Below, piece after piece: positions 8,298-37,546 of a stretch of 43,792 nucleotides of DNA. Position 1 is the stretch's first letter. Each line of letters begins with the position of its first letter. The notes beneath the pieces are model-generated. The model saw only the letters and a list, made by a program, of their open reading frames with translations, did no database searches and was not told the origin of the DNA. A program made the position numbers and the translations under genes. Source of the stretch: an uncultured Candidatus Poseidoniales archaeon (lineage in GTDB: Archaea; Thermoplasmatota; Poseidoniia; Poseidoniales; Thalassarchaeaceae); the NCBI GenBank assembly GCA_964441035.1, contig CAYYKF010000001.1:1-43792 (forward strand), read 5' to 3'.

Positions 8298-8301
8298 GAT
8301 A

Positions 8302-9689: not shown

Positions 9690-9699
9690 AAGAAAAAAC
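9690..9699 (-). terminator. Oligo-T tract immediately after the reductase gene stop
   Basis: Minus strand reads TGA GTTTTTTCTTCC. The T6 run starts 1 nt after the stop, the usual archaeal termination signal. Confidence 0.4.
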
Positions 9700-10974: not shown

Positions 10975-11081
10975 TGCAACCACCCAGAGTCAAGGTCCCC
11001 GCAGGGTGTGCGGACCGCTGAGCCTAATATATTTCAATGAAGGGGATTACCATTCCGCTACTTCATGATTGTTAGTGACAC

Positions 11082-14024: not shown

Positions 14025-14597
14025 ATGGTTATGACGAGGGCGCCGGTCGCCGGGCCGATGGCAGACAATGGTGGCGGCAACGGTTCTCGCGCGATTGCCA
14101 CGCTGGCACTGGTTCTTGGGCTATGGGCAACTTGTTTGGGTCTAATCAATATCATCTTTGGAGCTCATGGAACTTCAGAAAACAAACTCAAGGTCGTTTG
14201 GGCTGCTTATCTTAGTATGGGTTCACTTTACCCTGACCTTTACACCTCTGATATGGTCTACAGGCCTTTCAGCGACTCTGTTTTCATGCTACTTTCACTG
14301 GGCCTCACTGCTTGGGGTGCAAAAACACTCCATGACTCAACCGATGGTGGTCTATTGCAATGGCTGAAAAATACTGTAACCTGTGATTCTTGGTTGAGTT
14401 TAATGTCAATGAAAGAAGCCGGTGGGCGGATGACTGCAGCAATGTGGTGCTTGGTCATAGGGGTAGTATTCTACATTTACCAAGGTATTCAACATTGGAA
14501 TTGGGTCGATGTAGGTGTCTATTCAGTAACTGCCTCACTACTTGGATTCGGGTGCGCGTTGATGTTTGCAGCGAAAGCAGAAGAATCTGATGAATAA
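14025..14597 (+). CDS. Hypothetical integral membrane protein (about 4 TM helices)
   Basis: Four hydrophobic stretches: IATLALVLGLWATCLGLINIIF, VFMLLSLGLTAWGA, AAMWCLVIGVVFYIY, VYSVTASLLGFGCALMFAA. No family signature recognised. Confidence 0.55.
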   Translation: MVMTRAPVAGPMADNGGGNGSRAIATLALVLGLWATCLGLINIIFGAHGTSENKLKVVWAAYLSMGSLYPDLYTSDMVYRPFSDSVFMLLSLGLTAWGAKTLHDSTDGGLLQWLKNTVTCDSWLSLMSMKEAGGRMTAAMWCLVIGVVFYIYQGIQHWNWVDVGVYSVTASLLGFGCALMFAAKAEESDE

Positions 14598-21634: not shown

Positions 21635-22879
21635 TCACTGATCGGTTTCAGTGAATGAAGTCATTGCACCGCTCTTGCGATATTCATTCCACTCTTCTCC
21701 AATTTTTATGGCACGGCCACTAGGCGCCCAAACATCACGCTTCAAAGCCGGACGGAAGGGCATATGTAAGACTCGACGTCCATCTTTCAATTTCTTTCTG
21801 CGTAGCATTCCTAAGCGAACAAATGGCCACAGACAGCGTCGAAATAATCCTGGTGTGTATAACCTCTTCATGAAGAGCAAACCGTCACCTTTCTTGGCTT
21901 GATCCTTCATCCAATAATTGGCAACCATTTTGAAACCACGATTGCCGACTCGATTCATCAACCAACGATTGATTGCACTGGCCTTGACCAGCGGCAAGAG
22001 ATGTTTGCGAACACGCTTTTCATACGGCTCTCCGCCTAGAATATCCTGTGCTGCGTAAACACCTGAAGTGATAGCATAACGCATCCCAAAACCCCACATG
22101 AAATCCTGTAAACCACCTGCCTCGCCGATGTACCAACGGCCATCGTGTACATATTTATCTGGCAATGAAAAATCACCCTTTCCACCGACCCTCTTTATCG
22201 GTTTCCGATTCAATTCATAGTGCTCCTCATACCATGCGATCGTTTCATTGAGATATCTTCCTGTTTTCTTCTGCTTTCTCCAGAGACATGTACAAATTAG
22301 ACCTATGCCATCAATGACAATGAGATATGAATACGCACCTGGTGCCAACTTGTCGTTCAATTGAAAGACTGTGATATTCTCATGAGTGGTTTCAAACACC
22401 TCACCAAACGCTACTGCACTGCTGTCTTTTGGCCCCGCAGCAATGATTTGACATTCTTCTGGAGGTTTTTTCACCCCATAGTGAATATGAACTCCGGCTT
22501 CAACCGCCATTCGCTTGAAACCTTGGTCAATACAATGCTCATCTGTGCCTCGTTCAACAATGCGGAATGCACCATGCGGCCCTGTGAGTGGTTTGGTCAC
22601 AACATCATCTGGATGAATCAAATCAACTTCACTGAAAAGTGTCGATTTGAATGCCTCTGGATTAAGTCCCCACTCTCGCATTTCATCGAATAGACTTGTG
22701 GAACTCGTCCAATTCTCAATGCCTTGGAAATCACCATCGAATCGGGCCCCACTATCCTTTCGAATCTCGTGAACATGTACCTCGCGTCCAGCCTTAGCGA
22801 GGATGGTGGCTGCAGATAATCCTGACAGCCCAGCACCAAGGATATGGATGGGTTCATCAGGCCTCAGATGGGATTGCAT
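21635..22879 (-). CDS. FAD-dependent oxidoreductase, geranylgeranyl-reductase-like
   Basis: IHILGAGLSGLSAATILAKAGREVHVHE dinucleotide fold and the GEAGGLQDFMWGFGMRYAITSG motif. The C-terminal ~90 aa are basic. The start is uncertain (22909 or 22879). Confidence 0.7.
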   Translation of the reverse strand: MQSHLRPDEPIHILGAGLSGLSAATILAKAGREVHVHEIRKDSGARFDGDFQGIENWTSSTSLFDEMREWGLNPEAFKSTLFSEVDLIHPDDVVTKPLTGPHGAFRIVERGTDEHCIDQGFKRMAVEAGVHIHYGVKKPPEECQIIAAGPKDSSAVAFGEVFETTHENITVFQLNDKLAPGAYSYLIVIDGIGLICTCLWRKQKKTGRYLNETIAWYEEHYELNRKPIKRVGGKGDFSLPDKYVHDGRWYIGEAGGLQDFMWGFGMRYAITSGVYAAQDILGGEPYEKRVRKHLLPLVKASAINRWLMNRVGNRGFKMVANYWMKDQAKKGDGLLFMKRLYTPGLFRRCLWPFVRLGMLRRKKLKDGRRVLHMPFRPALKRDVWAPSGRAIKIGEEWNEYRKSGAMTSFTETDQ

Positions 22880-22956
22880 CGGATTTGCGAAGAACCCCTT
22901 TCGCTTCAAGGATTCGACGCCGCTGGATTGAAGGGGAGAAGGTGCTAGAACATGAT

Positions 22957-24807: not shown

Positions 24808-24824
24808 CGGCCCCGAAGGGGCCG
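24808..24824 (+). terminator. GC-rich 7-bp stem / GAA triloop hairpin directly after the glpX stop
   Basis: TAA CGGCCCC GAA GGGGCCG. No oligo-T follows. Confidence 0.35.
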
Positions 24825-24872: not shown

Positions 24873-25730
24873 ATGACGAACTGGCCCACAATGGAAGCCA
24901 TGACAAACAACCTAGTGAACTATGGTGTAACTGACAATGGAATTGCGATTATCGAACTTTCATCTGATTCAGCAGGTGAGCCATGGGTAGAGGGGAAGAC
25001 CTCAGTAAACACGTACACCCATGCAATGATGCGAGACATCGATGAAGCAGTGTTGAAAGCTCGATTCGATGATGATGTGACTGTCATCATCTTGACTGGA
25101 CACGGAGAGAAGTTCTTCTCAGCAGGAGCTAGTATTTCGATGCTAGATTCTGTCACACCCGGATTCAAGTACTTCTTTTGCCTACATGCAAATGAAACAC
25201 TGAGTCGCCTAGAACAAACACCAAAATTGGTTATCGCAGCCCTGAATGGCCATGCTGTTGGTGGTGGCCTTGAGATTGCCATGGCAGCAGATATCAGAAT
25301 TGGGCGCAAGGATGCTGGACAAGTCGGCCTACCTGAAGTATCACTAGGAGTCTTGGCCGGAACTGGTGGTACCGCACGACTTTCACGGCTCGTTGGCAAA
25401 GCCAAGTCCATGGAAATCATGGTGACTGGTCGAAAATTCTCCTATGAGGAAGCGATGGAAATGGACCTTGTTCACGATGTGTGGGATGGAAGTAATGACC
25501 AATTCCGACAAGACATTTTAGATTATGCAAGCCAATTCACTTTGCCATTCGCTGCGAGTAAAGCGATTGGAAATATCAAACGCAGTGTGCAAAGCGGGAT
25601 GGAAATACCTCTTGAATACCACCTTGCACTTGAACGCGAATTGCAATCCGACCTTTTCCAAAGTAGCGATGCTAAGACGGGTATTGCTGCGTATGTAGAA
25701 AAGAAGACGCCTCGCTTTGAGGGTGCATAA
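24873..25730 (+). CDS. Enoyl-CoA hydratase/isomerase (crotonase family)
   Basis: FFSAGASI, ALNGHAVGGGLEIAMAADIRIG, and the oxyanion-hole and catalytic Glu region of crotonases. The start could be the ATG at 24900. Confidence 0.85.
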   Translation: MTNWPTMEAMTNNLVNYGVTDNGIAIIELSSDSAGEPWVEGKTSVNTYTHAMMRDIDEAVLKARFDDDVTVIILTGHGEKFFSAGASISMLDSVTPGFKYFFCLHANETLSRLEQTPKLVIAALNGHAVGGGLEIAMAADIRIGRKDAGQVGLPEVSLGVLAGTGGTARLSRLVGKAKSMEIMVTGRKFSYEEAMEMDLVHDVWDGSNDQFRQDILDYASQFTLPFAASKAIGNIKRSVQSGMEIPLEYHLALERELQSDLFQSSDAKTGIAAYVEKKTPRFEGA

Positions 25731-25744
25731 ACGGAGGTTTGCAC

Positions 25745-26905
25745 ATGAGTACTACTGATGTTGTTGAGCAATACCAACCCAATTTTGAGGCTTGGATTGA
25801 TCAATTCAACGAATGGCAAACACGCATTGGTTTTGATCCAGCATGGCTAGGTGATTATCGATTTGAAATAAAATTCGATTGGGATACAGCAGGCGATACC
25901 ATTGAGTTCGGCGACTTTGAAGGAATGCCAAAGTGGGAACGTAGGATGCAAGTTCCTCAACAGACAGTGCGTGATGCAATAATCAGCATGGTAAGTGTGC
26001 AAGGCGACACCGAATTCGCAAGCGTGGAACAGCAATGGCATCTATTGGATACTGCACCCACAGAGTATGACAAAAAATCTGCAATGCGAATCATGTGTGA
26101 AGAACAACGTCATGGATGGCAAATGGCCTATGTCCTTTGCAACTATTTCGGAGATCAAGGTGTTCGTGAGGCTCAGAAATTACTTGAGCGGAACTCATCG
26201 GCCAATCCCATTCGAGGAGAAGAAGATCGTCCAAGGTTGCTCGGTTCCTTCAATGAGCCAATTGACCACTGGTTGGACTTCTTCATGTTCACCCACTTCA
26301 TTGATCGAGATGGAAAATTTCAACTCAAGATGCTCAGCACATCATCGTTCAAACCTCTTGCTGCAAGCATGGGGCCGATGCTAAAAGAAGAGTCATTCCA
26401 CCTAGGAACCGGTGCCAACGGGATTCGTAGAATTGTGAATCAGGGTGTAATCCCATGTGCTCTCATCCAGAAGTATGTCAACAAGTGGGTAAGCACTGGA
26501 TTGGACCTCTTTGGTGTCGATGAATCTACATCAGCACAGTGGGCATACGTGTATGGAATCAAAGGTCGATACGATGAACGCGAAAATAAAGCGGATGCGG
26601 ATCGCGAGCACCTCAATGAGGAAAGTCGTGCGCTTTATTTCAATGAACTAAATTTAGAGATGGAACGCATCAACGCTCGACGAAAAGATGGAGAAAATGC
26701 ACTATTCATTCCTTCTGACAAGTTTAACCGAAGTGTTGGAATGTACCAAGGTAAACGATTCAATCTACACGGTGATCCATTTGAAGGAGGGGATGAAGAA
26801 TGGAATCAATATCTCCATTCTGTCCTACCAAATGATGATGATGAAGCACAACTTCAAGAATATTTCAAAGAAGAGTGGATTCAATATCGCGAATGGAAGG
26901 AGTGA
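25745..26905 (+). CDS. Diiron-carboxylate oxygenase of the BoxB/PaaA (aryl-/acyl-CoA epoxidase) family
   Basis: Two E...ExxH-type half-sites: TEFASVE...x24...CEEQRHG and FIDRDG...x25...LKEESFHLGTG. The carboxylate and His spacings are those of ferritin-like diiron oxygenases, and the second site starts with Asp as in BoxB. GGAGG lies 8 nt upstream of the ATG at 25745. Confidence 0.6.
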   Translation: MSTTDVVEQYQPNFEAWIDQFNEWQTRIGFDPAWLGDYRFEIKFDWDTAGDTIEFGDFEGMPKWERRMQVPQQTVRDAIISMVSVQGDTEFASVEQQWHLLDTAPTEYDKKSAMRIMCEEQRHGWQMAYVLCNYFGDQGVREAQKLLERNSSANPIRGEEDRPRLLGSFNEPIDHWLDFFMFTHFIDRDGKFQLKMLSTSSFKPLAASMGPMLKEESFHLGTGANGIRRIVNQGVIPCALIQKYVNKWVSTGLDLFGVDESTSAQWAYVYGIKGRYDERENKADADREHLNEESRALYFNELNLEMERINARRKDGENALFIPSDKFNRSVGMYQGKRFNLHGDPFEGGDEEWNQYLHSVLPNDDDEAQLQEYFKEEWIQYREWKE

Positions 26906-26922
26906 ATTCCCCGGGTGATATC

Positions 26923-27483
26923 ATGCAGGCCCACGCCCTGCTCAGTGTTGATCGTGAACGGTTACGGCCGTTCTTTGAACGAGTACCAGAATTGTTTGAT
27001 GCTCATCACAATCACGAAAGTCAGAATCCAAAGGGATACGAGGAACTGCTCTATCGTGTCTATCGGCCTTACACGAGTAGTATGCTCGATATGATTGATG
27101 AATGGATGGGACATGAGAAACGGAGTTGGCACAGCGATATAGAGAGAGAAGTGATGCTAATGCTATACGCTATTCGTTATCCTGATACGCTGCTACTTGA
27201 GAGCCTATCAGATGAAGCAGAATTAGATGTTCGACGAATATCTGGTTACCTTCACTTCATGAAGCACACTTACACAATTTGGGACGAAGATACACGTAAA
27301 GGATTGGAGAAACTTGGCATATTGATTCCCACAACAGATCAAGCGGACCCATTCATCTATGGTGCATATATTTCAGCGATTGAACTTCTCAAGGACCTGG
27401 CGCCGTTTTACTCATTCTTGGAGCATGATGTACCACGTCAACGACTCTTCCAATCGGCCTTAGCAGCGTACGGAAGGGAGTGA
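26923..27483 (+). CDS. Hypothetical helical protein (186 aa) between the oxygenase and the dehydrogenase
   Basis: GGTGAT lies 5 nt upstream of the ATG at 26923. Composition is all-helical. No motif recognised. It is tightly packed between neighbours (18 nt and 4 nt gaps). Confidence 0.5.
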
Positions 27484-27487
27484 TGAA

Positions 27488-28378
27488 ATGGAGATTCAAA
27501 CCGTTGCCGTCATCGGTGCAGGTACCATGGGCGCCGGAATCGCTCAGATGTGCGCTCAGGCTGGATGGACGACTAATCTCTACGACGCATTTCCTGAAGG
27601 CCTTGCGAAGGGCATGGAAACCATCGATGCATTCTGGGACAAGGGAATTGCTCGAGGAAAAACCACACCGGAGCAGAAAGCAGAATGGAAACAGAATTTG
27701 TACGCAGTCTCTGACATGAGAGAAGCAGTAGCAGACGCTGACCTCGTCATTGAAGCAGTGCCGGAGATTGTTTCACTAAAACATGAGATTTTTACAAAAC
27801 TCGGGAAGATGACTCCTAAACACTGCGTGCTGGCAACGAATACATCGGGCCTATCGATTACCGATATTGCTGAAGCAAGTGGGCGAGGCGACAAAGTCAT
27901 CGGCATGCATTTCTTCAATCCAGTTCCATTGATGAAACTGTTAGAACTCATCCGCGCGGATTCGACAAGCGATGAAACCGCTGCTCTGGCAGAATCTGTA
28001 GGTGCTACGATGGGAAAGACGACCATCATGGTGAATGATATCGCAGGCTTCGCGACCTCACGCTTGGGAGTTGTTCTCGGAAACGAAGCCATCAGGATGC
28101 TCGCCGAAGGTGTGGCGAGCGCGTCTGACATCGATACTGCCATGGTTCTCGGTTATCGTCATCCAATGGGGCCATTGGAACTGACCGATCTTGTCGGTCT
28201 TGATGTCCGCCACCATATTTTGAACAACCTTGCTGATGCGCACGGTGATGAGCGATATCGTCCTCATCCCTTGCTAGCTACTCTAGTTGAAGCTGGAGAC
28301 CTCGGAAAAAAGACTGGAAGGGGGCTCTACGATTGGTCAGACGGTGAGAAAAGAAATCGAGAGGATTTACCTCTCTAA
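27488..28378 (+). CDS. 3-hydroxyacyl-CoA dehydrogenase (Hbd/PaaH type)
   Basis: [15 protein letters not shown] Rossmann motif, [26 protein letters not shown], and the C-terminal dimerisation domain. Confidence 0.9.
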
Positions 28379-31300
28379 TCAAATCAGATCATCTAGAAAG
28401 GATGTATCGACATCATTCCCTTCTGCCATGGAAGGAAGATCATCAGCAGTACTTGCAGCAGGATTCATTGAAGGAACTTCGGTTAACGGTGGATTGTGCA
28501 TTGGCAATGGATCATCTTCAGTTGATTTCCAAAGGTCATTGGTCCGATCCATGTCGCCAGATACAAGGCTTGATTGATCCAGATTGAAATCATCTTTACT
28601 GCGAGCTCTACGCAAAACAAAGAATGTAGTGATTGCTGCGAGAACAATCAATACTCCAACAAGAGCAAGAACAAGACTCATCACTGAGAATAAGTCATCA
28701 GAAGATTCTGTGCCAACACCAAATGGTGGCACCTCCAAAGGAGAGACTTGGATAATTTCGCCTGCTGCATGGTCATTGGTGACTGCAATCCACCAATACT
28801 TAGACGAGTCAATCGGTTCTCCATTGATTGTCGTGATTATGAATGTGTCATCTCGTATATTCACAGCAATTTGAACAGACTCCCCAGTGACTGTAAATCG
28901 TGAATCTGATATGTAAATCGAAAGTCCAGCCCTTGCAGATTCTGTGCGATCCCAGGTAATCTCCAATGCAGTTCCATTGTATATCCATTCCGCGGTTAAA
29001 TCAGAAACTGGTGACTCAACTTCCACTGGTTCAGCATCTGCAATCGGTGTCATCGAAGCGGGTAGGATGTCTGCACAATTGACATTGGCAGAGGCATCCA
29101 CTGCGACAATTGCAACTGTCACCTGCTCAGTAGGCTCGAGGAAACGGCCACTGGAATAGCGATCCAGTAACAAGGGTTGCTCCGCGTCCACAGGGAGGAG
29201 CATCGCTGGTTGTAATTCACATGTCTCCTCGTAGTAGTAAGATTCCACATAAATCGCATACCAAGCGACATCATCCGCACCTGAAGGGGTGAATTCCATC
29301 CATAGAGCGTTGCCGTAATCATTCACCACATCGGACAGCGTTGGACGGTCCATTCGAGGTGGTGCCTCTGTATCTCTTAGATCATCAATCGGCATCACTG
29401 AAGTGGTTACGAGCGAATCTAGGAAGACGTTCCCATCTCCATCATGAGCAGAGACGGAAACAAACAATTCGACGTCTGGCTGGATTTGGAGACGGATACC
29501 CATATTCAGAGAATCCCCATACAATGCTTTGTCAATCACCATTGTATCGGATATTCCGGCAACCATGACCATCTCTGCGCATGTATCGAGATAGAAGGAA
29601 CAGCGTGACCACATGCTGGAGACATCAGACACATCATGTTCCGATACCCAAACCGTGTAGTGGACTACATCTGAATCAATTGAAGGTGTCCAACTGACTT
29701 CAATCGCGTGTCCAGAATCACTCGGGATATCACTTGCACTAACGCTCTCTACGCGCGCGGGCGCATCTGTCTCTCGTAAATCTGCCAAAGGCATGCCTTC
29801 ATCCCAGGGGCTATTCTCTGGGTCTGCATTCAGATTGGTATCATAAGCTACGACTGTCACCCAATATGCTTGGCCGTCATCAAGACCTCCGATCATTGTG
29901 TCGGTATTCTCACAACCCTCAATCCATTCAACGACTGGGGCCTCATCTGCACTTACCGGAGGCCATGCTCCGCTTACTGGTGTCAGATGTACTGCGTACA
30001 ATGCGCAGTCATCAGCCTCAGACTCTGCCCAAGATATGTCAAGCACACCACCTGAATCATCAGGATGGTCTTCTGCGAGAACCCAGTCAAGAGGTTCAGG
30101 GGCATCTGTATCATTCTCAAGTGAGGTCGAGATTGGACCAATTATGAGTGGATTCGGTAAGTCGATTTGCCAAGCAGTATCGACACAGTAAATTCGAGCC
30201 CAAACAGGGGTGCCAAGCAAGGGGATGCTGGTGGAATTATCTCCTGAAGCAGGGTTTACGTCCTCACCCTGCCATCCAGAACTGAACGAATCAAGGGGTT
30301 CAAGCGGGCTTATGGAGTAATCGAACTGGCTAAATTGATAATCTAGAGCACTGCAATACTCCCATTCAACTAGGACCTCGGTATCACTGAGTTCGGTGTT
30401 CGCCCATGAGGGTGCGAGCGGGATGTCATCGAAAGGTGATACTGGTCCAATTGTATTGCTTGAGTTAGAGTGGTTGCCATTGCTGTAAACAACCTCGACC
30501 CAAGCAGTGTATCCTTCCGCGTCATCCAGTCCGGTTATTACCGTCTGGACGTCGAATCGTGAGGGAATTGTAATCGAGTTTGGAGTTTGTTCGTTTGCGC
30601 CAATATAATACAATTCATAGGCAGAAAAACCGGTCTCAAGCGTTGGTGTCCACATCGCAACAAGTGCATCCCCGCCATCATTCGGTCGGTCTTCAAGAAG
30701 CAACATCTGAACAGGGCTGTCGGAAGGAATCGCAGTGTAGGTCAGACGGACTTTAATCGAACCATTGGACGGTGAATCGAAGCGGAGATGTAAATCATGA
30801 CCTGTGCTGTTTGTATCACCAAAGGCGACCGCTTCTAGGAGAGCACGCATGGCTGATTCTGAATTTGCTATATTCCACGTACCAGAATAATCGACTTGAG
30901 TCGTGCGTGCCCAAACAGCAGCACCTTCGATATCACTGCTGAAAATGAGTGGAACCTCTGCAAGTGAAAGTGCATCATTCTCTTCACCCACGAGCACACC
31001 CGTACCCAAATCAAGTGTGATGGAATTATCCGGTCGAGCGGCGGTCGTGATGTCGGTCATCTCAACACCGATTGTCGCGCGAAGAGGTGTTGCGCGCTTG
31101 TCGACAACCTGCGGCATCATTTCGTAACCTGGAGAAGGTCCAAAGGGCCGTACACCATCCTCACCTGCAGCAACCCAAGTTCCGTATTGACCCTGGAAAG
31201 TCGCAATGATTCCAGGTGCACCCGTTGAATTGATTACAGGATGGCCAACACCTTGCACTGAAATTCGATGCATCAATCCGGTCGTACCTGCAAGTAGTGT

Positions 31301-34300
31301 CTGGCCATTGCTGGATAGGCTGGTGATTGGCCAACCATTGGTATCAGAAGCCACAGCCCCGTTCTCCATCTGATTGGTTATCGCATTCCAATGTGACAAA
31401 GGCTCCTCCTCTGTCGCGATGTGAACACCCCATCCATCTGCAGCAATAGCAGTAACATCGTTACTTGGCAATGAGTCTGCATGATACTGTAAGAGTGCGT
31501 TTCGGTCAACTCCACGAACCTGTGTAGCGCCCGGTCTTGTTGGACCGAAGCCATCATGGCTAGCATAGAGTAAGCCTCCTGCACTCGCGATGTCCGCTGT
31601 AGAAGTCCCTGTCAATCCTTGATTTCTAGTTAGGCATTGTTGCACATTTGGCATTGATGTTACAGGTGAGGATGGATTAACCGCACAGAGTCCACCAAAG
31701 GTGGCTACCCAAAGTTCTCCCCCAGCTATTTCCAACCCGCGTACATCTGAAGAAGGAAGACCCGCAGCCACACTGACAGTAGGCCCCCAACTGTTTGCTG
31801 CGATATCCCACGAACCAACACCGCCCGGAGTAGCAAACCACACGCTGCCATCATACTCCACCACATCTTCTACAATCGGAGATGGTAAACCTGGAATTAA
31901 CGCGCCATCAATGAACTGTTCATTGTTCAAATCAAACACAGCCACGCCAGCAGCCATTTCTACAGCACTAAGGCCAATGACAAGATCACCATCATGCAGT
32001 GTCATGAAAGAGAGACTTTCGTGAGAGGCTGGTGGCATTGCACCGATGTCTCCAGTAGACAAATCAATGCGATGAAGCCCAGAATTTCGAGTCGTAACCC
32101 AAAGCAATCCATCTTGTAGGAATAAGCGTTCAATCGAAGCATAATCCAACTCCCACGAACGGGCCCAATCGACATCTCCGTTTGCCAATATTGTGCCTTC
32201 CAAAATCGTTGATGCCCCATCAGTTCGGGCTGAACCTGACGACAAGAATGCCGCATAAACATGGGAACTGTTGCCTGCAAAATGTCTCACACGACCATCA
32301 GTCATACCGGTCCAAGCACCCATGGTACCGAAATCATCGCCCAAGGAGTTGAACATCTTCGCGCGCCCGGGACCATTCGCACCAGGTTGAGCAACCAACC
32401 AATCAACTGAATTTCCTGGTAATTGGGGATAAGGAACAATCGAAGTCGTACTGATTCCATGATCGACACTTCGTCCATTACCGGTCCAATCACCTAGGAC
32501 TGGAATAGTAGAAAATGACCCCTCTGAATTGAAGTCGCCACCTTGCACATGACCAAACGCGAGGATGCTGTTTGCCCAATACATGGCATCGTGTGCAACA
32601 CCAGACCAACCCATGTCAAAATCATCAGGATAAATTGGATCCATCCATTCCTCTTCGCCGTAATCATATCTTTGAATTCCAAATTCTCCTTCTTCCGTGC
32701 CAACATAGAGGATATCTTCAGTATCACAAGCAAGCGCTGTAACTGAGGCCCAATACAAGCCATCTTGCTCCTGTCGACCGCCATTGTCGAAATCGAATTC
32801 AAATTCAGATTCAAAGGGCTCTAGCCATTCGTTCTGAATTGGGTCATAACGAGCAATTCCTCCTTCACCATCCCAAACTTCACCATAAAATCCGAAATGG
32901 ATGATATCAGCACACATCTCAATCGTGATTCCTGTTCCATCTGGAATCTCATCCGTGCTTGAACCTGACCAAGTCATCCATTGATTGGTCGAACCATTCA
33001 ATCTGTGTATTTGAGATGATGAACTCGACGAAGAAGACTTGGTAATCATCCACAAATCATCACCGATAACCTCGAGAGAACGGACATTGTTTGAGGCGGA
33101 GGGTGGTAACCCATCACCGGCCTCCCATGGGTCAACAAAATTCCAATTTGAGGTGGAGACGCGAAGGACACCATCTGGTGATGCCAACAATCCATATCCA
33201 TCCCATGTCACCGCAGCCCTAATCGGACCCTCAAGAGAAGGTTCGCTTTCTACCGTGCCATCAAGCCACATCATGCGATGATAATCATCTCCGAAGGAAG
33301 ACAATATGATGCAAGACTCTGAATCTGCTAGAATACTCGTAGAATCACAATCGCCTAGGAAAGCAACCAAACCTTCGTCTTCTACCGAACTCTCTGGCTC
33401 AATATCATCGAGCCATTGTTCTGCATTTGCGTCCCAACGTGCAATACCTGCTGGGTCATTACTCCAGTGGTATGAGTTGGGCTTGCCAATACCAATCCAA
33501 AGTTCATCTCCGCGTACATTCTCCATACCGATGATTGAAAGTTGATTTTGGTTTGGAGACAGGAAGGAAGGTCGTAAGTCACTCAACTTTTCTTCGGAAT
33601 CCACATCATAACGAAATACACGTGTTGCAGGTTGTCCAAAGCCTTGGTTACCGCCTCCACCGCCTCCTGGTCTTTGACGGCCTTCAGTTCCATCTTCACC
33701 GTCTTCCGACTGGAGGATGAAATCAAAATCATCACCATCGAATATATCGGTAAACGTGTCCAAATTTCTACGCTCAGGAGGCGTTTCAAGATAATGTAGT
33801 ACTTCATCGATTCGAACCAATTGTTGTGGGGCACGTGGTGAAACCCTTGGATCACTATCATCATCCCAATTGTTCAGTTGATTGCCATTTCGCATATCTA
33901 ACTCGACCAAACCAAAATCACCACCGACCCAAAGGTGCTCGGATGAGATATCATCGCTCAGAGCTGTCACACCATTATTCGGCAATTGGCCTGATGCAGC
34001 ATTCCATGGTGACAACCACTGCTGTGTATCAAGGTCATATCGAGCAACCCCTATTCCATCGACTGCTAGATGCGCAACATCATTCCAGACAACGACTGGT
34101 GTGTTCCATGTCGAACCACCAGTGGACCAAGATTGTAGGATGGTCTCATTCAATGTATCAATGAGATACGCGCCATGGTCTGTTGAAACGTAAATTCGAT
34201 TGGGAGAAGGAATTGTTAGAGAATTACCGTCAGTGGTATCGATTTCAATGTTAGACCGGGGATTTGAGTTCCAACAGGTAATGAGGGAAAGGTCATCGCG

Positions 34301-36688
34301 CTCATAGACGCACAGGCCTTGAAATTCCTGTAAAGCATACAACTTACTTCCTTCACTGGCAAAGGCTGTCGTTCGTCCACCGAACCAAATGTCTCCAGCA
34401 TCTGGATTCTCAAAACCATCAGCACTGCGTCGTACAAATCCCATCTCATGACCGACATAAACTTCTCCATCGACATCTACGTGCAGTGAGAGAACCCAAG
34501 GGTTTGGCAAACTCGCAAATTCTCCTTCTTCCATATCGTCAAGCCACCACCACCAATCTTCTTCAGATTCGGCCCAAGTCTCAACGATTTCGCCGGTATC
34601 GCGATCAAACACAAAGACGCCTGCATCGTATAATCCGAGATAAACGCGGTCACCACCAACTGCAATCGGTGCATGTTCAACATCATCGACATCGCTTGAG
34701 CGCCATGAACCAAGTATTTCCTCTGTGATGAGATTCACCCGAGCAACACCCTCACCTTCAATTGCAACGAATGCGATTCCGTTTCTGGCAACAACATCGA
34801 AGGCATATCCGCGCTGGAATTCATCATTCTCATTCCACACATCTATGCTACCTGTAGACATCTCGATTCGGCCTAGGCCATCATCACCCATTGCGATAAG
34901 AAGCGAGCCTGTGAGAGCATCCCATGCTAGGGCGGTTGGGTCCGCAGACATACCCATGGTGATGGTATCAGCATGAGTTCCATTCGATGCCCATACATCA
35001 ATCGATAATTCATCTCCTACACTGAACAAACGATTACCATCTGTTGTAATTGAGTTGACTCCATGCTCAGGGAACAATGGGCTAAGCCACGCGCGCGCGC
35101 GAACATCGAACCTGTCAATCGCAAGGTCACCCGCTGCATACAAAATCCCATCGATTTCGAGTACATCATGCACATGTTCATTGGTCGGAGTTGTTGCTAA
35201 CAATAGGTCCCCAAGTGCCTGTGGGGCTGCTAATGCATCCAATACTGCAAGTCTTCCGCTACCATCGCTCACCATCAAAGCTGATTGCGTAGGTGCTCGT
35301 AGGCCACCAGTTGGCCAAGATACCAAATCCATTCCTTCATGATTGAGACCCATAGCAGGAAGCATCGATTCACCAGTAAATGATGCAGTTACAGTGTTGT
35401 AAACATGTAGACCCACATCGGTAAGAATAGAAGTAGAGTTACCATTGGCAGAAAGGTCGACGATATGATTCGATGAAAGCCAGTTTCCATCATGCCAAAC
35501 TGCCAACCAATTTCCACTCGCCAAATCCTTTCGAGCCAACCCCTCATCAGTGGTACCAACAAACAAAGTTCCATCATTATGAGACAAAATTGAGATGTGG
35601 TCACTTGGAAGATGATTTGCTGTAGACCATCCACTCAACCTGGTATCTGCAACACGATTCCATCGTGCTATTCCACCTCCGTCTGTCGAAACGAGAATTT
35701 CATCTCCAAGGAATAGAATATCAGTTGTAGGTTCATCAGGCCATTGTGAGTCGGAATCTGAGGAAATGGCCTCTTGCCATCCATTACCATCATTGACATG
35801 CAGATGACCTGCACCTGCAACCCAGATGTGACCTGATGAGTCTAGAGCCATCTGGGATGATGAAGATGGAGCATTGCTTAGAGGGGTGCATTGCGCACCA
35901 CCAATAAGTTGCCAGCAAAGGATATTTCCACCCTTCTCTAATCCAAGAATTCGATCATTTCCCACATCAACAGCCAAGGAAATGAGGTCAACTCCTTCGA
36001 TTCTATCGATAATCGATGGCGATGCGCTCGCATCTAGTATCAGCAACGAATCTCCACTGACAGCAAGGTACAGGCGACCATCATCGGGATGAACTGCATG
36101 TGCTTGAATGTCAAGCATATATGGAGTCAAAGAAACCAGTGGGTCCACCGGACGAAGTGCCTCAATAATGACATCAGTAACGGTTGCATTGTTAGGAATC
36201 TGCCATGTTGCAGTGGTATCTGATTGTGGTGCCATTCGACCGTTGTGTGGATCACCGTCTGAGAAATCGAGAAGACGACCTAAACCTGGACCTGACGACC
36301 AATCAAGCACCATCGAATCTGACGCAGGAGACCAGATTCGTGGGTTTTCAAGGAACAAGTCATTAGCACCATCAACCTGTATCTGAAGAGATATATCCGA
36401 CATTTGTACCCCATAGGGAACTAAATGATGGAAATCTGCTGTAGAGAGGTTATCTCCATCCGGGTCTGTCAAATCAAGTTGGACCCAACCTGTATCTACT
36501 GGAATCCCAGATTCTTCTGTACCACCTTCAGCAGATGTAGAGGTCAATAAAGGCGAGAGTGACATCAGTAGCATCAATCCGCAGAGCAAGAGTGCTTGTC
36601 TGGGCTGTGACATCACTTGGAATGGCCGCAATCGGGCCGTTATGGTAGTTCTGGTTCGCTGTATTTGGCACATCATTGGTGTAACCAA
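28379..36688 (-). CDS. Giant (about 2745-2769 aa) type I membrane-anchored surface protein: signal peptide, multiple Reg_prop-like beta-propeller regions, tandem FN3/Ig-like modules, C-terminal TM helix and 77-aa acidic cytoplasmic tail
   Basis: Single uninterrupted ORF. The probable start is the ATG at 36613 (MSQPRQALLLCGLMLLMSLSPLLTSTSA|EG). At least 11 blade signatures occur, such as ILVSTDGGGIARWN, LFVGTTDEGLARKD, LYVGTEEGEFGIQRYD, LWVTTRNSGLHRID and VWFATPGGVGSWD. The TM helix LFSVMSLVLALVGVLIVLAAITTFFVL is encoded at 28613-28693. Confidence 0.85.
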   Translation of the reverse strand: MVTPMMCQIQRTRTTITARLRPFQVMSQPRQALLLCGLMLLMSLSPLLTSTSAEGGTEESGIPVDTGWVQLDLTDPDGDNLSTADFHHLVPYGVQMSDISLQIQVDGANDLFLENPRIWSPASDSMVLDWSSGPGLGRLLDFSDGDPHNGRMAPQSDTTATWQIPNNATVTDVIIEALRPVDPLVSLTPYMLDIQAHAVHPDDGRLYLAVSGDSLLILDASASPSIIDRIEGVDLISLAVDVGNDRILGLEKGGNILCWQLIGGAQCTPLSNAPSSSSQMALDSSGHIWVAGAGHLHVNDGNGWQEAISSDSDSQWPDEPTTDILFLGDEILVSTDGGGIARWNRVADTRLSGWSTANHLPSDHISILSHNDGTLFVGTTDEGLARKDLASGNWLAVWHDGNWLSSNHIVDLSANGNSTSILTDVGLHVYNTVTASFTGESMLPAMGLNHEGMDLVSWPTGGLRAPTQSALMVSDGSGRLAVLDALAAPQALGDLLLATTPTNEHVHDVLEIDGILYAAGDLAIDRFDVRARAWLSPLFPEHGVNSITTDGNRLFSVGDELSIDVWASNGTHADTITMGMSADPTALAWDALTGSLLIAMGDDGLGRIEMSTGSIDVWNENDEFQRGYAFDVVARNGIAFVAIEGEGVARVNLITEEILGSWRSSDVDDVEHAPIAVGGDRVYLGLYDAGVFVFDRDTGEIVETWAESEEDWWWWLDDMEEGEFASLPNPWVLSLHVDVDGEVYVGHEMGFVRRSADGFENPDAGDIWFGGRTTAFASEGSKLYALQEFQGLCVYERDDLSLITCWNSNPRSNIEIDTTDGNSLTIPSPNRIYVSTDHGAYLIDTLNETILQSWSTGGSTWNTPVVVWNDVAHLAVDGIGVARYDLDTQQWLSPWNAASGQLPNNGVTALSDDISSEHLWVGGDFGLVELDMRNGNQLNNWDDDSDPRVSPRAPQQLVRIDEVLHYLETPPERRNLDTFTDIFDGDDFDFILQSEDGEDGTEGRQRPGGGGGGNQGFGQPATRVFRYDVDSEEKLSDLRPSFLSPNQNQLSIIGMENVRGDELWIGIGKPNSYHWSNDPAGIARWDANAEQWLDDIEPESSVEDEGLVAFLGDCDSTSILADSESCIILSSFGDDYHRMMWLDGTVESEPSLEGPIRAAVTWDGYGLLASPDGVLRVSTSNWNFVDPWEAGDGLPPSASNNVRSLEVIGDDLWMITKSSSSSSSSQIHRLNGSTNQWMTWSGSSTDEIPDGTGITIEMCADIIHFGFYGEVWDGEGGIARYDPIQNEWLEPFESEFEFDFDNGGRQEQDGLYWASVTALACDTEDILYVGTEEGEFGIQRYDYGEEEWMDPIYPDDFDMGWSGVAHDAMYWANSILAFGHVQGGDFNSEGSFSTIPVLGDWTGNGRSVDHGISTTSIVPYPQLPGNSVDWLVAQPGANGPGRAKMFNSLGDDFGTMGAWTGMTDGRVRHFAGNSSHVYAAFLSSGSARTDGASTILEGTILANGDVDWARSWELDYASIERLFLQDGLLWVTTRNSGLHRIDLSTGDIGAMPPASHESLSFMTLHDGDLVIGLSAVEMAAGVAVFDLNNEQFIDGALIPGLPSPIVEDVVEYDGSVWFATPGGVGSWDIAANSWGPTVSVAAGLPSSDVRGLEIAGGELWVATFGGLCAVNPSSPVTSMPNVQQCLTRNQGLTGTSTADIASAGGLLYASHDGFGPTRPGATQVRGVDRNALLQYHADSLPSNDVTAIAADGWGVHIATEEEPLSHWNAITNQMENGAVASDTNGWPITSLSSNGQTLLAGTTGLMHRISVQGVGHPVINSTGAPGIIATFQGQYGTWVAAGEDGVRPFGPSPGYEMMPQVVDKRATPLRATIGVEMTDITTAARPDNSITLDLGTGVLVGEENDALSLAEVPLIFSSDIEGAAVWARTTQVDYSGTWNIANSESAMRALLEAVAFGDTNSTGHDLHLRFDSPSNGSIKVRLTYTAIPSDSPVQMLLLEDRPNDGGDALVAMWTPTLETGFSAYELYYIGANEQTPNSITIPSRFDVQTVITGLDDAEGYTAWVEVVYSNGNHSNSSNTIGPVSPFDDIPLAPSWANTELSDTEVLVEWEYCSALDYQFSQFDYSISPLEPLDSFSSGWQGEDVNPASGDNSTSIPLLGTPVWARIYCVDTAWQIDLPNPLIIGPISTSLENDTDAPEPLDWVLAEDHPDDSGGVLDISWAESEADDCALYAVHLTPVSGAWPPVSADEAPVVEWIEGCENTDTMIGGLDDGQAYWVTVVAYDTNLNADPENSPWDEGMPLADLRETDAPARVESVSASDIPSDSGHAIEVSWTPSIDSDVVHYTVWVSEHDVSDVSSMWSRCSFYLDTCAEMVMVAGISDTMVIDKALYGDSLNMGIRLQIQPDVELFVSVSAHDGDGNVFLDSLVTTSVMPIDDLRDTEAPPRMDRPTLSDVVNDYGNALWMEFTPSGADDVAWYAIYVESYYYEETCELQPAMLLPVDAEQPLLLDRYSSGRFLEPTEQVTVAIVAVDASANVNCADILPASMTPIADAEPVEVESPVSDLTAEWIYNGTALEITWDRTESARAGLSIYISDSRFTVTGESVQIAVNIRDDTFIITTINGEPIDSSKYWWIAVTNDHAAGEIIQVSPLEVPPFGVGTESSDDLFSVMSLVLALVGVLIVLAAITTFFVLRRARSKDDFNLDQSSLVSGDMDRTNDLWKSTEDDPLPMHNPPLTEVPSMNPAASTADDLPSMAEGNDVDTSFLDDLI
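28694..30697 (-). repeat. Tandem FN3/Ig-like module region of the giant protein (protein-level repeats, aa ~1998-2665)
   Basis: Recurrent module openings: LEDRPNDGGDALVAMWTP, DTDAPEPLDWVLAEDHPDDSGGVLDISWAES..YAVHL, ETDAPARVESVSASDIPSDSGHAIEVSWTPS..HYTVWV, DTEAPPRMDRPTLSDVVNDYGNALWMEFTPS..WYAIYV. Confidence 0.6.
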
Positions 36689-36763: not shown

Positions 36764-37546
36764 TTAATCAAAATTCGGGTCTCTCTTCTCAATGAAAGAT
36801 GTGACGCCTTCTGCAAAATCTGGAGTCATAGAAGCTGCTGTAATCAGTGCTCTCTCAAATTCCAATTGTGTTTCAAAAAAGGTCGAGCTTTGAGCATCGA
36901 GTAGTTGTTTCGTGCTACGACGACTCATTTCAGCCCAACGCCCCCAATCTTTTGCTATCGCAATGGCCCGTTCAGTTAATTCATCTACAGGAACCAATTC
37001 ATCAACCGCTCCTTTGCTAAGAGCTTGTTCTCCATTCCATGTTTCATCGTTGAAGAAGAAGCGTTTCGTTTCCTGAGTTCCAACCAAACGCGGGAGTAAC
37101 CAAGTGGTTCCGCCATCTGGTGATAAACCAAGTTTGAAAAATGCTGCAGATAGCCTTGCATCGGGGGACGCGATGCGTGCGTCACATGCCAGTGCAAGGC
37201 CCAATCCTCCACCTGCAGCAGCCCCATTCATTGCAGCGATGATAGCGGTTGAATCACCTCTCATCCTGACTAGAAGCGGGTGAAGAATACCTGTTAACTG
37301 CTCCACCAAATCTCCAATTTTCCCATCTTCAATAGCACCTTGAAATTCATTGATGTCTGCACCCGCACAGAAAAATCGACCCGTGCCTGTTATCACGATG
37401 CTACGAATCCTAGAATCATCCATCAATTCGTTCAGTGTATCAGAAATTGTTTGGATTGAATCAATATCAAACGCATTACGGGATGATTCGGCAGAAAGAG
37501 TCGCTAATGCGACCCCTCCGTCCAACCTCTCCACCTCTAGGGCCAT
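36764..37546 (-). CDS. Enoyl-CoA hydratase/isomerase (crotonase family), second copy
   Basis: FFCAGADINEF and AAMNGAAAGGGLGLALACDARIAS crotonase motifs. Length is 260 aa. Confidence 0.9.
   Translation of the reverse strand: MALEVERLDGGVALATLSAESSRNAFDIDSIQTISDTLNELMDDSRIRSIVITGTGRFFCAGADINEFQGAIEDGKIGDLVEQLTGILHPLLVRMRGDSTAIIAAMNGAAAGGGLGLALACDARIASPDARLSAAFFKLGLSPDGGTTWLLPRLVGTQETKRFFFNDETWNGEQALSKGAVDELVPVDELTERAIAIAKDWGRWAEMSRRSTKQLLDAQSSTFFETQLEFERALITAASMTPDFAEGVTSFIEKRDPNFD

What the first reader, a model, noticed from the sequence alone, without database searches (positions are those of the whole stretch)
24873..28378. BoxB/PaaA-like diiron CoA-ester oxygenase embedded in a beta-oxidation-like cluster in an archaeal context
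**Seen.** The order is crotonase, then a 387-aa ferritin-like protein with two carboxylate/ExxH half-sites (E-x29-EEQRH and D-x28-EESFH), then a 186-aa unknown helical protein, then 3-hydroxyacyl-CoA dehydrogenase. All are co-directional and tightly spaced. On the far side of the giant surface gene lie a second crotonase (36764-37546) and an aldehyde dehydrogenase (37613-39031).

**Established.** This enzyme set (diiron epoxidase, crotonase-family ring-opening or isomerase enzymes, aldehyde dehydrogenase, hydroxyacyl-CoA dehydrogenase) is the logic of the bacterial aerobic benzoyl-CoA (box) and phenylacetyl-CoA (paa) pathways. The Asp-initiated second site is the BoxB pattern.

**Inference.** This may be an aerobic hybrid pathway for an aromatic or otherwise unusual acyl-CoA in a marine archaeon. 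The oxygenase is shorter than BoxB, and no cognate reductase, CoA ligase or thiolase lies adjacent. The stand-alone CysJ-like reductase at 9700-10974 is a candidate electron donor. The substrate is unknown.
Basis: partly seen in the sequence, partly recalled or inferred. Interest (0 to 1): 0.65.

Follow-up and report, generated by a model that had tools for sequence, protein, structure and literature searches.

The report
Short BoxB-type oxygenase operon in marine archaea
A marine Group II archaeon carries a tight operon built around a shortened relative of the bacterial benzoyl-CoA ring-epoxidising iron enzyme, always paired with a small protein of unknown family, which probably lets these very abundant ocean archaea break down aromatic acids with oxygen.

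Summary
Four co-directional genes at 24873-28378 form a tight operon: crotonase ECH1, a 386-aa diiron protein (BoxBL), a 186-aa unknown protein (P186) and a 3-hydroxyacyl-CoA dehydrogenase.

BoxBL is a true BoxB homologue (PDB 3PER, E=1e-47). All six iron ligands are present at identical spacing, and six of seven substrate-pocket residues are conserved. It belongs to a distinct short clade of about 360-390 aa that:
- lacks four segments of canonical BoxB;
- has Ile/Val where BoxB has Thr210;
- scores 223 bits against a cutoff of 499 on the BoxB equivalog model;
- has no BoxA or BoxC nearby.

P186 follows BoxBL immediately in 80 of 85 related loci and matches no known family or structure.

The PaaG-like isomerase ECH2 and the aldehyde dehydrogenase are real neighbours. 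The 2769-aa surface gene between them and the operon is a lineage-specific insertion. Gemmatimonadota carry the same gene set in one operon, together with a thiolase that scores best as 3-oxoadipyl-CoA thiolase (just under the curated cutoff).

Most likely this is an oxygen-dependent, CoA-dependent ring-opening pathway for benzoyl-CoA or a close analogue. Substrate, electron donor and the role of P186 remain unproven. Databases and one 2016 paper already call the gene boxB, so this is a new variant of a known kind.

The parts
24808..24824 (+). GC-rich hairpin (cggcccc-gaa-ggggccg) directly after the glpX stop codon; it probably marks the end of the upstream unit, so ECH1 starts a new transcription unit
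   Evidence: read directly from the sequence
24873..25730 (+). ECH1: crotonase-family enzyme, 285 aa, with both hydratase catalytic Glu residues (GGGLE...PE) and a ~43-aa N-terminal extension. It is the neighbour best conserved with BoxBL across domains, and is the candidate for acting on the oxygenase product (ring hydrolysis) or for hydration
   Evidence: PF00378 E=9e-47. Best PDB hits are 2PPY and 5ZAI; no equivalog cutoff is reached. It is 59-67% identical to the crotonase in the Gemmatimonadota BoxBL clusters and ~70% to the MGIIa one
25745..26905 (+). BoxBL: short-form BoxB-type diiron acyl-CoA oxygenase, 386 aa
   Evidence: PF05138 44.5 bits (cutoff 28.5); TIGR03225 222.8 bits (cutoff 499.1); 3PER E=1.2e-47. 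5064 homologue clusters, named boxB or PaaA-like by their sources. Separate clade from canonical BoxB, 79/100 NJ bootstrap
26012..26401 (+). Stretch encoding the six diiron ligands E90, E120, H123, D187, E216, H219 (BoxB E120, E150, H153, D211, E240, H243), plus the pocket residues. I186 replaces BoxB T210
   Evidence: alignment to 3PER, ligand list from PMC5489048, column check across 35 sequences and 120 MGII homologues
26923..27483 (+). P186: conserved, all-helical 186-aa protein of no known family; presumed second subunit or accessory factor of BoxBL
   Evidence: 173-382 homologue clusters, all 'hypothetical'. Lies immediately 3' of BoxBL in 80/85 loci. No Pfam, NCBIfam or PDB match; hhalign against BoxB negative. 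AF2 pLDDT 61, 11 helices; Foldseek found nothing
27488..28378 (+). 3-hydroxyacyl-CoA dehydrogenase (PaaH/Hbd-like), 296 aa; last gene of the operon
   Evidence: PF02737 + PF00725; NF006722 336 bits (cutoff 429), PaaH 244 bits. Follows P186 in nearly all loci
28379..36688 (-). 2769-aa surface-protein gene: a lineage-specific insertion that splits the conserved cluster; not part of the pathway
   Evidence: in L001-L006, L009, L014, L018, L019, L027, L028 and others, ECH2 lies 0.3-1 kb after the dehydrogenase with no such gene between them; no hit of the giant protein in any of the 85 loci
36764..37546 (-). ECH2: PaaG-like crotonase-family isomerase, 260 aa. It has GGGLG and GLSPDGG motifs, so it lacks the hydratase Glu pair and carries an Asp as in PaaG
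   Evidence: best NCBIfam hits are NF046063 'oxepin-CoA hydrolase, alternative type' 177 bits (cutoff 300) and PaaG 162 bits. Among the best PDB hits are E. coli PaaG 4FZW_C (5.5e-35) and 6SL9/6SLA/6SLB/3HRX (which I recognise as Thermus PaaG entries); 5YLO (2.3e-42) ranks first. Syntenic with BoxBL in most loci long enough to show it
37613..39031 (+). NAD(P)-dependent aldehyde dehydrogenase, 472 aa, divergent from ECH2; candidate semialdehyde dehydrogenase (BoxD/PaaZ-ALDH role)
   Evidence: PF00171 E=2.5e-161; no equivalog cutoff reached. An ALDH occupies this position in MGIIb (66-79% id), in MGIIa (a different ALDH, ~33% id, opposite strand) and in Gemmatimonadota (39-44%)
21635..22909 (-). 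424-aa FAD-binding protein with weak similarity to the geranylgeranyl-reductase superfamily. It is adjacent to ECH1 in most other Poseidoniales; its role in the pathway is unknown
   Evidence: PF13450, TIGR02032 weak. Directly next to ECH1 in the MGIIa and MGIIb loci that contain both genes
9700..10983 (-). CysJ-C-terminal-type FAD/NADPH reductase with no flavodoxin or Fe-S domain; only a weak candidate electron donor
   Evidence: PF00667 + PF00175; TIGR01931 409 bits; BoxA model only 86 bits. Lies 2.7 kb upstream of BoxBL in 4 of 85 loci, always together with the biotin carboxylase gene

Best explanation
The operon ECH1-BoxBL-P186-HCDH, together with the nearby PaaG-like isomerase ECH2 and an aldehyde dehydrogenase, most likely encodes an oxygen-dependent, CoA-thioester-based ring-opening pathway of the box/paa type.

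Proposed steps:
1. BoxBL, a short-form BoxB-type diiron enzyme working with P186, uses O2 and two electrons from a non-dedicated donor to epoxidise the ring of benzoyl-CoA or a close aromatic analogue.
2. A crotonase-family enzyme opens the ring hydrolytically. ECH1 is the best candidate.
3. The ALDH oxidises the resulting CoA-semialdehyde.
4. ECH2 shifts the double bond.
5. Hydration, then oxidation by the 3-hydroxyacyl-CoA dehydrogenase, gives a 3-oxoadipyl-CoA-type product.
6. A thiolase encoded elsewhere cleaves it.

Shown: homology, intact metal site, conserved pocket, operon structure and cross-domain co-conservation. Inferred: the substrate, the epoxidase chemistry, which crotonase does which step, the electron donor, and that P186 is a subunit.
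For: **BoxB homology with an intact active site**
- 3PER E=1.2e-47; TIGR03225 E=8e-66.
- All six ligands sit at identical spacing. Pocket residues Q116, T119, S123, F193, F203 and F206 are conserved in the window protein (F203 and F206 vary in some other short-form members).

**Tight operon**
- Spacers of 14, 17 and 4 nt, each with an SD-like motif.

**Co-conservation**
- BoxBL-P186-HCDH with ECH1, ECH2 and an ALDH recurs across the Poseidoniales loci of both families wherever the contig is long enough.
- The ALDH slot is kept even where a different ALDH fills it.

**Gemmatimonadota operon**
- Gene order: TetR, ECH1-orthologue, ALDH, thiolase, PaaG-like ECH, BoxBL, (GDPD), HCDH, ECH, amidohydrolase_2, DASS transporter.
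- Its thiolase scores best as 3-oxoadipyl-CoA thiolase PcaF/PaaJ: 552-559 bits against cutoffs of 597-605, and more than 100 bits above generic thiolase models.

**Partner enzymes**
- ECH2 resembles PaaG in sequence and in catalytic motif.
- ECH1 is more conserved between archaea and Gemmatimonadota (59-67%) than BoxBL itself (52-55%).

**Expression**
- boxB was reported among the most highly expressed MG-II genes in the Red Sea (PMC5069720).
Against: - BoxBL fails the curated BoxB equivalog cutoff (223 against 499 bits). It lacks four canonical segments and has Ile/Val instead of Thr210, the residue held to set regio- and stereoselectivity in BoxB.
- No BoxA-type reductase, BoxC-type (~550 aa) dihydrolase, CoA ligase or thiolase lies in the window or within 10 kb in the archaeal loci.
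- None of the crotonases, the ALDH or the dehydrogenase reaches an equivalog cutoff for a Paa or Box function.
- Conservation across both Poseidoniales families and high expression would also fit a housekeeping lipid or amino-acid role.
- The AlphaFold models were poor (pLDDT 61), so there is no structural check of the pocket.
Confidence: 0.6

Rival explanations
1. BoxBL oxidises a non-aromatic acyl-CoA, for example by hydroxylating, desaturating or epoxidising an aliphatic, alicyclic or methyl-branched (isoprenoid-derived) chain. This would let otherwise blocked lipid substrates enter the beta-oxidation steps encoded by ECH1 and HCDH, with the ALDH acting on a released aldehyde.
For: - Marine Group II archaea are regarded as lipid and protein degraders. 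[quoted passage not shown]
- The operon is conserved across both Poseidoniales families rather than patchy.
- There is no ligase, BoxA or BoxC, and the partner enzymes score best with generic beta-oxidation models.
- A geranylgeranyl-reductase-like flavoprotein is syntenic with ECH1.
- T210 is replaced by Ile/Val, which makes the pocket more hydrophobic.
Against: - The residues that hold the benzoyl ring and thioester in BoxB (Q116, T119, S123, F193, F203, F206) are retained in the window protein.
- The bacterial clusters contain a PaaG-like isomerase and a thiolase closest to 3-oxoadipyl-CoA thiolase, the signature of ring-derived C6 dicarboxyl-CoA, plus an amidohydrolase_2 and a dicarboxylate-type transporter.
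- No characterised BoxB/PaaA-family member is known to me to act on aliphatic CoA esters (my own knowledge).
Confidence: 0.2
2. The same pathway logic applies, but the substrate is an arylacetyl-CoA (phenylacetyl-, 4-hydroxyphenylacetyl- or indoleacetyl-CoA). Archaeal 2-oxoacid:ferredoxin oxidoreductases make these directly from aromatic amino acids, so no CoA ligase is needed and reduced ferredoxin is available as the electron donor.
For: - ECH2 is PaaG-like, and its best family hit is the crotonase-type oxepin-CoA hydrolase of paa pathways.
- The divergent ECH2/ALDH pair mimics the two activities of PaaZ.
- The absence of a ligase in all archaeal loci is explained.
- Marine Group II archaea are peptide consumers (PMC9723583).
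Against: - BoxBL is far closer to BoxB than to PaaA (E=1e-47 against 2e-3; 223 against 33.5 bits) and keeps the BoxB benzoyl-pocket residues.
- No PaaB, PaaC, PaaD or PaaE homologues are present.
- No indolepyruvate or 2-oxoacid oxidoreductase gene was seen in the window.
Confidence: 0.12
3. BoxBL is not functionally linked to its neighbours, or is a non-catalytic ferritin-like protein (a PaaC-like scaffold or an iron-handling protein), and the gene order only reflects conserved housekeeping synteny.
For: - The flanking genes glpX, moaC, moaE and the fructose-bisphosphate aldolase gene are equally syntenic housekeeping genes.
- No dedicated reductase was found.
Against: - All six metal ligands and the pocket are conserved in every short-form member.
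- The association with crotonases, ALDH and dehydrogenase is re-created in a different gene order in Gemmatimonadota, where none of the archaeal housekeeping neighbours is present.
- Spacers of 4-17 nt indicate co-translation.
Confidence: 0.03

Closest known systems
BoxB, benzoyl-CoA 2,3-epoxidase oxygenase component (Aromatoleum/Azoarcus evansii; PDB 3PER, 3PF7, 3PM5, 3Q1G; TIGR03225; KEGG K15512)
   Same: - Same ferritin-like fold family. About 40% identity overall to a canonical BoxB-type representative (P0265), with a highly similar four-helix core.
- Identical six ligands and spacing (E-x29-ExxH, D-x28-ExxH).
- Conserved Q116, T119, S123, F193, F203 and F206.
- Embedded among ALDH and beta-oxidation-type genes, as in box clusters.
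   Different: - 386 aa rather than about 473. Four segments are missing: an N-terminal ~30 aa, ~20 aa after helix GIxRI, ~25 aa in the middle, and the C-terminal tail.
- Thr210 is replaced by Ile/Val in the whole clade.
- 223 bits against the 499-bit equivalog cutoff.
- No BoxA, BoxC, BoxR or ligase nearby.
- An extra obligate neighbour, P186.
- Archaeal host.
PaaABCDE phenylacetyl-CoA 1,2-epoxidase and the paa lower pathway (PaaG, PaaZ, PaaF, PaaH, PaaJ)
   Same: - Pfam family PF05138.
- Multi-subunit logic: a catalytic diiron subunit plus small accessory subunits.
- ECH2 resembles PaaG; ECH1 and the third ECH resemble PaaF; HCDH resembles PaaH.
- The Gemmatimonadota thiolase resembles PaaJ/PcaF.
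   Different: - The PaaA model scores only 33.5 bits against 280; PDB PaaA E is about 2e-3.
- No PaaB, PaaC, PaaD, PaaE or PaaZ (MaoC) homologues.
- P186 is unrelated to any Paa subunit.
PDB 4MUD, 235-aa 'ring oxydation complex/phenylacetic acid degradation related protein' (function unpublished as far as I know)
   Same: A second example of a truncated BoxB/PaaA-like core: E=6.6e-16 over residues 62-239, including the ExxH motifs.
   Different: Much shorter (core only) and more distant; no functional data or context were examined here.

Membership tests
BoxB (TIGR03225 equivalog, benzoyl-CoA 2,3-epoxidase subunit B) | Whole-protein score at or above the curated cutoff (499.1 bits) | tested here: not met
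   222.8 bits in two stretches covering only profile positions ~63-255 of 471; the Gemmatimonadota short form scores 221.5 bits
BoxB (TIGR03225 equivalog, benzoyl-CoA 2,3-epoxidase subunit B) | Six diiron ligands E120, E150, H153, D211, E240, H243 at BoxB spacing | tested here: met
   E90, E120, H123, D187, E216, H219 at identical spacing; conserved in 119-120 of 120 MGII homologues
BoxB (TIGR03225 equivalog, benzoyl-CoA 2,3-epoxidase subunit B) | Benzoyl-CoA pocket residues Q116, T119, S123, F193, F203/F206, T210 | tested here: inconclusive
   Six of seven conserved in the window protein. T210 is Ile or Val in nearly all short forms (Q or G in two divergent representatives) and Thr in all but one long-form representative. 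The effect on substrate or regiochemistry is unknown
BoxB (TIGR03225 equivalog, benzoyl-CoA 2,3-epoxidase subunit B) | Full-length architecture of about 470 aa | tested here: not met
   386 aa with four segments deleted relative to the canonical representatives P0265, P0275 and P0287; separate clade, 79/100 bootstrap
BoxB (TIGR03225 equivalog, benzoyl-CoA 2,3-epoxidase subunit B) | Encoded with the BoxA reductase and the BoxC dihydrolase (boxABC cluster, PMC10803450) | tested here: not met
   No Fe-S/FNR fusion and no ~550-aa crotonase in the window or in the Pfam-annotated loci L001-L005. All crotonases are 250-290 aa
BoxB (TIGR03225 equivalog, benzoyl-CoA 2,3-epoxidase subunit B) | Catalyses NADPH- and O2-dependent 2,3-epoxidation of benzoyl-CoA | not testable with these tools
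   needs biochemistry
PaaA_PaaC superfamily (Pfam PF05138) | Score above the Pfam gathering threshold (28.5 bits) | tested here: met
   44.5 bits, E=1.5e-11, residues 73-269
PaaA (TIGR02156, phenylacetyl-CoA epoxidase subunit A) | Score above the cutoff (280 bits), with PaaB/C/D/E partners | tested here: not met
   33.5 bits; no PaaB/C/D/E Pfam or NCBIfam hits on the neighbours
PaaG-type crotonase isomerase (for ECH2) | Equivalog score (345 bits), and Asp in place of the hydratase Glu pair | tested here: inconclusive
   161.8 bits, below the cutoff. The motifs GGGLG and GLSPDGG are read from the sequence. E. coli PaaG (4FZW_C) and 6SL9/6SLA/6SLB/3HRX are among the best PDB hits

The most novel reading that the evidence does not exclude
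Short BoxB plus P186 is a new two-component diiron acyl-CoA oxygenase. In it, a subunit from a previously undescribed family replaces the missing BoxB segments and the BoxA docking or electron-delivery function. The operon would then be a core, constitutively and highly expressed route by which Marine Group II archaea, among the most abundant planktonic archaea, oxidise aromatic dissolved organic matter in the oxic surface ocean.
Probability: 0.25. Interest if true: 0.75.

Novelty: new variant of a known kind. Interest (0 to 1): 0.55.

Why it matters
Marine Group II archaea are uncultivated and very abundant in the surface ocean, and their carbon sources are inferred almost entirely from genomes. 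If this operon, conserved across both families and reported as highly expressed, is an aerobic CoA-dependent aromatic-ring pathway, two things follow. The box/paa 'hybrid' strategy, so far characterised in bacteria, would extend to planktonic archaea. A concrete class of dissolved organic matter would also be identified as one they consume.

For enzymology, the short BoxB clade raises two questions. It works without BoxA or BoxC, so how are electrons delivered, and how is the ring opened? It also carries a systematic change at the residue thought to set regioselectivity. P186 is a compact family with no known relatives that can now be tested directly by co-expression.

Tried and rejected
**P186: searches that found nothing**
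- phmmer and a profile search of P186 against PDB sequences found nothing below E=0.5.
- Pfam and NCBIfam at permissive thresholds gave no hit.
- hhalign of P186 against the BoxB alignment, testing whether P186 supplies the missing BoxB segments, gave probability 0.1%.
- My recalled resemblance of the P186 motif 'S-x-Y-L-H-F...Y-P-I-W-D...GLxKLG' to OGG-fold or HhH proteins was not supported by any search, so I dropped it.
- No BoxBL-P186 fusion exists among 270 BoxB-like proteins.

**Structure prediction**
- AlphaFold2 of P186 gave pLDDT 61, and Foldseek on it gave no match below E=2.
- A deeper P186 alignment could not be submitted. The third homologue search again listed only close MGIIb sequences, and sequences from fetched loci are not accepted for prediction.
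- AlphaFold2 of BoxBL was also poor (pLDDT 61, core segments below 50). No ligand superposition was possible, although Foldseek still ranked BoxB first.

**Context and literature**
- The BoxB structure papers (PMC3190730, PMC2898338) are not held, so CoA-contact and BoxA-docking residues could not be checked.
- Pfam scans of the high-GC loci L074 and L079 gave no useful extra context.
- No Rfam family or tRNA is present in the window.

Full report
**1.

The window has the gene content of a Marine Group II (Poseidoniales, family Thalassarchaeaceae) archaeon. The nearest homologues of the central protein are named Candidatus Thalassarchaeum or Thalassarchaeaceae, and the neighbours include Cdc6, class-I aldolase and glpX.

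Four co-directional ORFs lie at the coordinates given:
- a crotonase, ECH1 (24873-25730);
- a ferritin-like protein (25745-26905, 386 aa from the ATG that follows a GGAGG motif);
- a 186-aa ORF (26923-27483);
- a 3-hydroxyacyl-CoA dehydrogenase (27488-28378).

The spacers are 14, 17 and 4 nt, each with a Shine-Dalgarno-like motif. A GC-rich hairpin follows the upstream glpX stop codon. This is one operon. Pfam and NCBIfam confirm all family assignments, including the second crotonase (36764-37546, minus strand) and the aldehyde dehydrogenase (37613-39031) beyond the 2769-aa surface gene.

**2. The central protein is a BoxB homologue with an intact diiron site**

- It passes the PaaA_PaaC Pfam threshold (44.5 bits against 28.5).
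- It hits the BoxB equivalog model at E=8e-66. The score is 222.8 bits, below the 499-bit cutoff, and only the core is covered.
- Against solved structures the best match is BoxB of Azoarcus evansii (3PER, E=1.2e-47). A 235-aa uncharacterised core protein, 4MUD, follows at 6.6e-16, and PaaA at about 2e-3.

The published ligand set is E120, E150, H153, D211, E240, H243, with second-shell residues Q116, T119, S123, F193, F203/F206 and T210 (PMC5489048). The window protein has E90, E120, H123, D187, E216 and H219 at exactly the same spacing. It keeps every second-shell residue except T210, which is Ile.

In an alignment of 35 BoxB-like proteins, the ligands and most of the pocket are conserved in the short-form members. 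Position 210 is Ile or Val in nearly all short forms and Thr in all but one long-form representative. Of 120 close MGII homologues, 119 carry F-I-DRDGK.

My AlphaFold2 model was poor (pLDDT 61), so the ligand test rests on sequence alignment. Foldseek nevertheless ranked the BoxB structures first (E about 2e-7) and PaaA far behind.

**3. It belongs to a separate short clade**

Canonical BoxB-type representatives are 445-475 aa. The MGII protein and its relatives are 350-392 aa. They lack four segments: about 30 aa near the N-terminus, about 20 aa after the GIxRI helix, about 25 aa in the middle, and the C-terminal tail.

A neighbour-joining tree separates short from long forms with 79/100 bootstrap support. 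An exhaustive search of 1.84 billion cluster representatives found only 844 relatives at E<1e-3, so the whole BoxB-like family is compact. At 90% clustering the short MGII form alone has thousands of members (5064 hits), which reflects how abundant these archaea are.

**4. The 186-aa protein is real, family-less and tied to BoxBL**

- It has 173-382 homologue clusters, all labelled hypothetical.
- Alignments across MGIIb, MGIIa and other Thermoplasmatota share 28-40% identity and 16 invariant residues: D10, F17, Y39, P87, S107, H111, L128, G132, P136, Y149, E154, K157, P161, E167, R174 and L180. No Cys is conserved, so an Fe-S cluster is unlikely.
- An HMM of the family finds a member immediately downstream of BoxBL in 80 of 85 fetched loci, including divergent copies in L079 and L080 (hhalign probability 99%).
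- The exceptions are one truncated contig and four bacterial loci (three Gemmatimonadota and L084). In L062 the gene is frameshifted.
- No Pfam, NCBIfam, PDB-sequence or Foldseek match exists, and there is no similarity to BoxB itself.
- The model is all-helical but of low confidence.

I infer a second subunit or accessory factor. I could not test this.

**5. The neighbours are co-conserved, also across domains**

I ran tblastn with the window's proteins against 85 loci from a scan of 185,579 species genomes.

- BoxBL-P186-HCDH is constant in Poseidoniales.
- ECH2 and an ALDH lie just downstream wherever the contig is long enough.
- ECH1 and a 424-aa FAD protein lie upstream.

In many MGIIb genomes ECH2 starts 0.3-1 kb after the dehydrogenase.

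MGIIa genomes add an HTH_10 regulator in front of BoxBL and an EamA transporter after P186. They use a different ALDH (33% identity, opposite strand) in the same slot.

Three Gemmatimonadota genomes carry the set in one operon: TetR, ECH1-orthologue, ALDH, thiolase, PaaG-like ECH, BoxBL, GDPD, HCDH, ECH, amidohydrolase_2, DASS transporter. The thiolase scores best, by more than 100 bits, with the 3-oxoadipyl-CoA thiolase models (552-559 bits against cutoffs of 597-605).

ECH1 is 59-67% identical between the archaeon and Gemmatimonadota, more than BoxBL itself (52-55%). That marks it as a specific partner rather than a generic hydratase. It keeps both hydratase glutamates.

ECH2 lacks those glutamates and carries the GLSPDGG motif. 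Its best family hits are the crotonase-type oxepin-CoA hydrolase and PaaG. E. coli PaaG (4FZW_C) and entries I recognise as Thermus PaaG are among its best solved relatives, although an unnamed enoyl-CoA hydratase/isomerase (5YLO) ranks first.

**6. Most likely mechanism**

The parts fit the box/paa strategy:
1. O2-dependent epoxidation of an aromatic CoA thioester by the diiron enzyme.
2. Hydrolytic ring opening by a crotonase-family enzyme.
3. Oxidation of the semialdehyde by an ALDH.
4. Double-bond isomerisation, hydration and oxidation.
5. Thiolysis to succinyl-CoA and acetyl-CoA.

The retained BoxB pocket points to benzoyl-CoA or a close analogue. The Thr210-to-Ile/Val change may alter regiochemistry or substrate range.

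No BoxA, BoxC, ligase or (in archaea) thiolase is encoded nearby. The electron donor, the source of the CoA ester and the last step are therefore all inferred to be encoded elsewhere.

It lies near BoxBL in only four MGIIa loci, always together with a biotin carboxylase gene. It remains a weak candidate.

I put 0.6 on this explanation. The rivals are:
- 0.2 for a non-aromatic acyl-CoA substrate within lipid catabolism;
- 0.12 for an arylacetyl-CoA substrate derived from amino acids;
- 0.03 for no functional link.

**7. What is already known, and what is new**

Public annotation already names these proteins 'benzoyl-CoA 2,3-dioxygenase component B' or 'phenylacetic acid catabolic protein'. A Red Sea metatranscriptome paper listed boxB among the most highly expressed MG-II genes (PMC5069720). 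Another study found a 3-hydroxyacyl-CoA dehydrogenase among six non-ribosomal genes highly transcribed in all three MGII genomes examined (PMC9723583). Whether that is this gene was not checked.

I found no paper that describes any of the following:
- the short clade;
- its lack of BoxA and BoxC;
- the Thr210 substitution;
- the P186 partner;
- the cross-domain cluster.

The finding is therefore a new variant of a known kind. The family call is correct and not new. The architecture and the partner protein are new and experimentally tractable.

Noticed in passing
window 28379-36688 (-): The 2769-aa surface-protein gene sits exactly where other MGIIb genomes have 0.3-5 kb of variable sequence between the dehydrogenase and ECH2 (for example about 4.7 kb in L013 and about 5 kb in L032/L033). 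This intergenic spot looks like a recurrent insertion site for variable genes. The giant protein has no homologue in any of the 85 loci.
   Followed up: partly
window 21635-22909 (-); L001 7746-9029; L044 6137-7474: A 424-aa FAD-binding protein, only weakly similar to geranylgeranyl reductases, lies directly next to ECH1 in the MGIIa and MGIIb loci that contain both genes. In the window lineage an inversion of moaE-moaC-glpX separates the two. Its function, and any link to the oxygenase pathway, are unknown.
   Followed up: partly
L047, L050, L055, L056 (about 6100-9250); window 8302-10983: The CysJ-like reductase and a biotin carboxylase gene travel as a pair. In four MGIIa genomes they lie 0.8-2.7 kb upstream of BoxBL.
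   Followed up: partly
L044 3189-4250 (-); also L010, L011, L017, L021, L022, L026, L036, L039: A Rieske ring-hydroxylating oxygenase alpha-subunit gene lies within 10 kb of BoxBL in about 10 Poseidoniales genomes of both families. This is another hint of aromatic metabolism. It is not present in the window.
   Followed up: no
L049, L050, L076 (and possibly L073, L079): Contigs labelled Rhodobiaceae, Salinimicrobium and Deltaproteobacteria carry Poseidoniales-type synteny and 57-61% identical BoxBL, so they are probably mis-binned archaeal contigs. L073 ('bacterium') and L079 ('Proteobacteria') pair at 72-81% nucleotide identity with Thermoplasmatota loci L074 and L080.
   Followed up: partly
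L062 4030-4582: In this Poseidoniales genome the P186 gene is split by a frameshift, and the neighbouring dehydrogenase and ECH2 are unusually divergent (48% and 33%). The cluster may be decaying, or this may be an assembly error.
   Followed up: no
L082 9463-10131; L082 11760-12689: In Gemmatimonadota the slot after BoxBL is occupied by a glycerophosphodiester-phosphodiesterase-family protein instead of P186, and an amidohydrolase_2 protein closes the operon. Their roles are unexplained.
   Followed up: no
window 3849-4319 (+): A 4HBT-superfamily thioesterase (the fold family of PaaI and 4-hydroxybenzoyl-CoA thioesterase) lies about 21 kb from the operon. No link was tested.
   Followed up: no
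window 5454-7322 (+), 14025-14597 (+), 40908-41806 (-), 17015-19684 (-): Several sizeable ORFs have no Pfam family: 622 aa, 190 aa, 160 aa and 153 aa. An 889-aa protein has only an N-terminal ArsR-type HTH. None was examined further.
   Followed up: no
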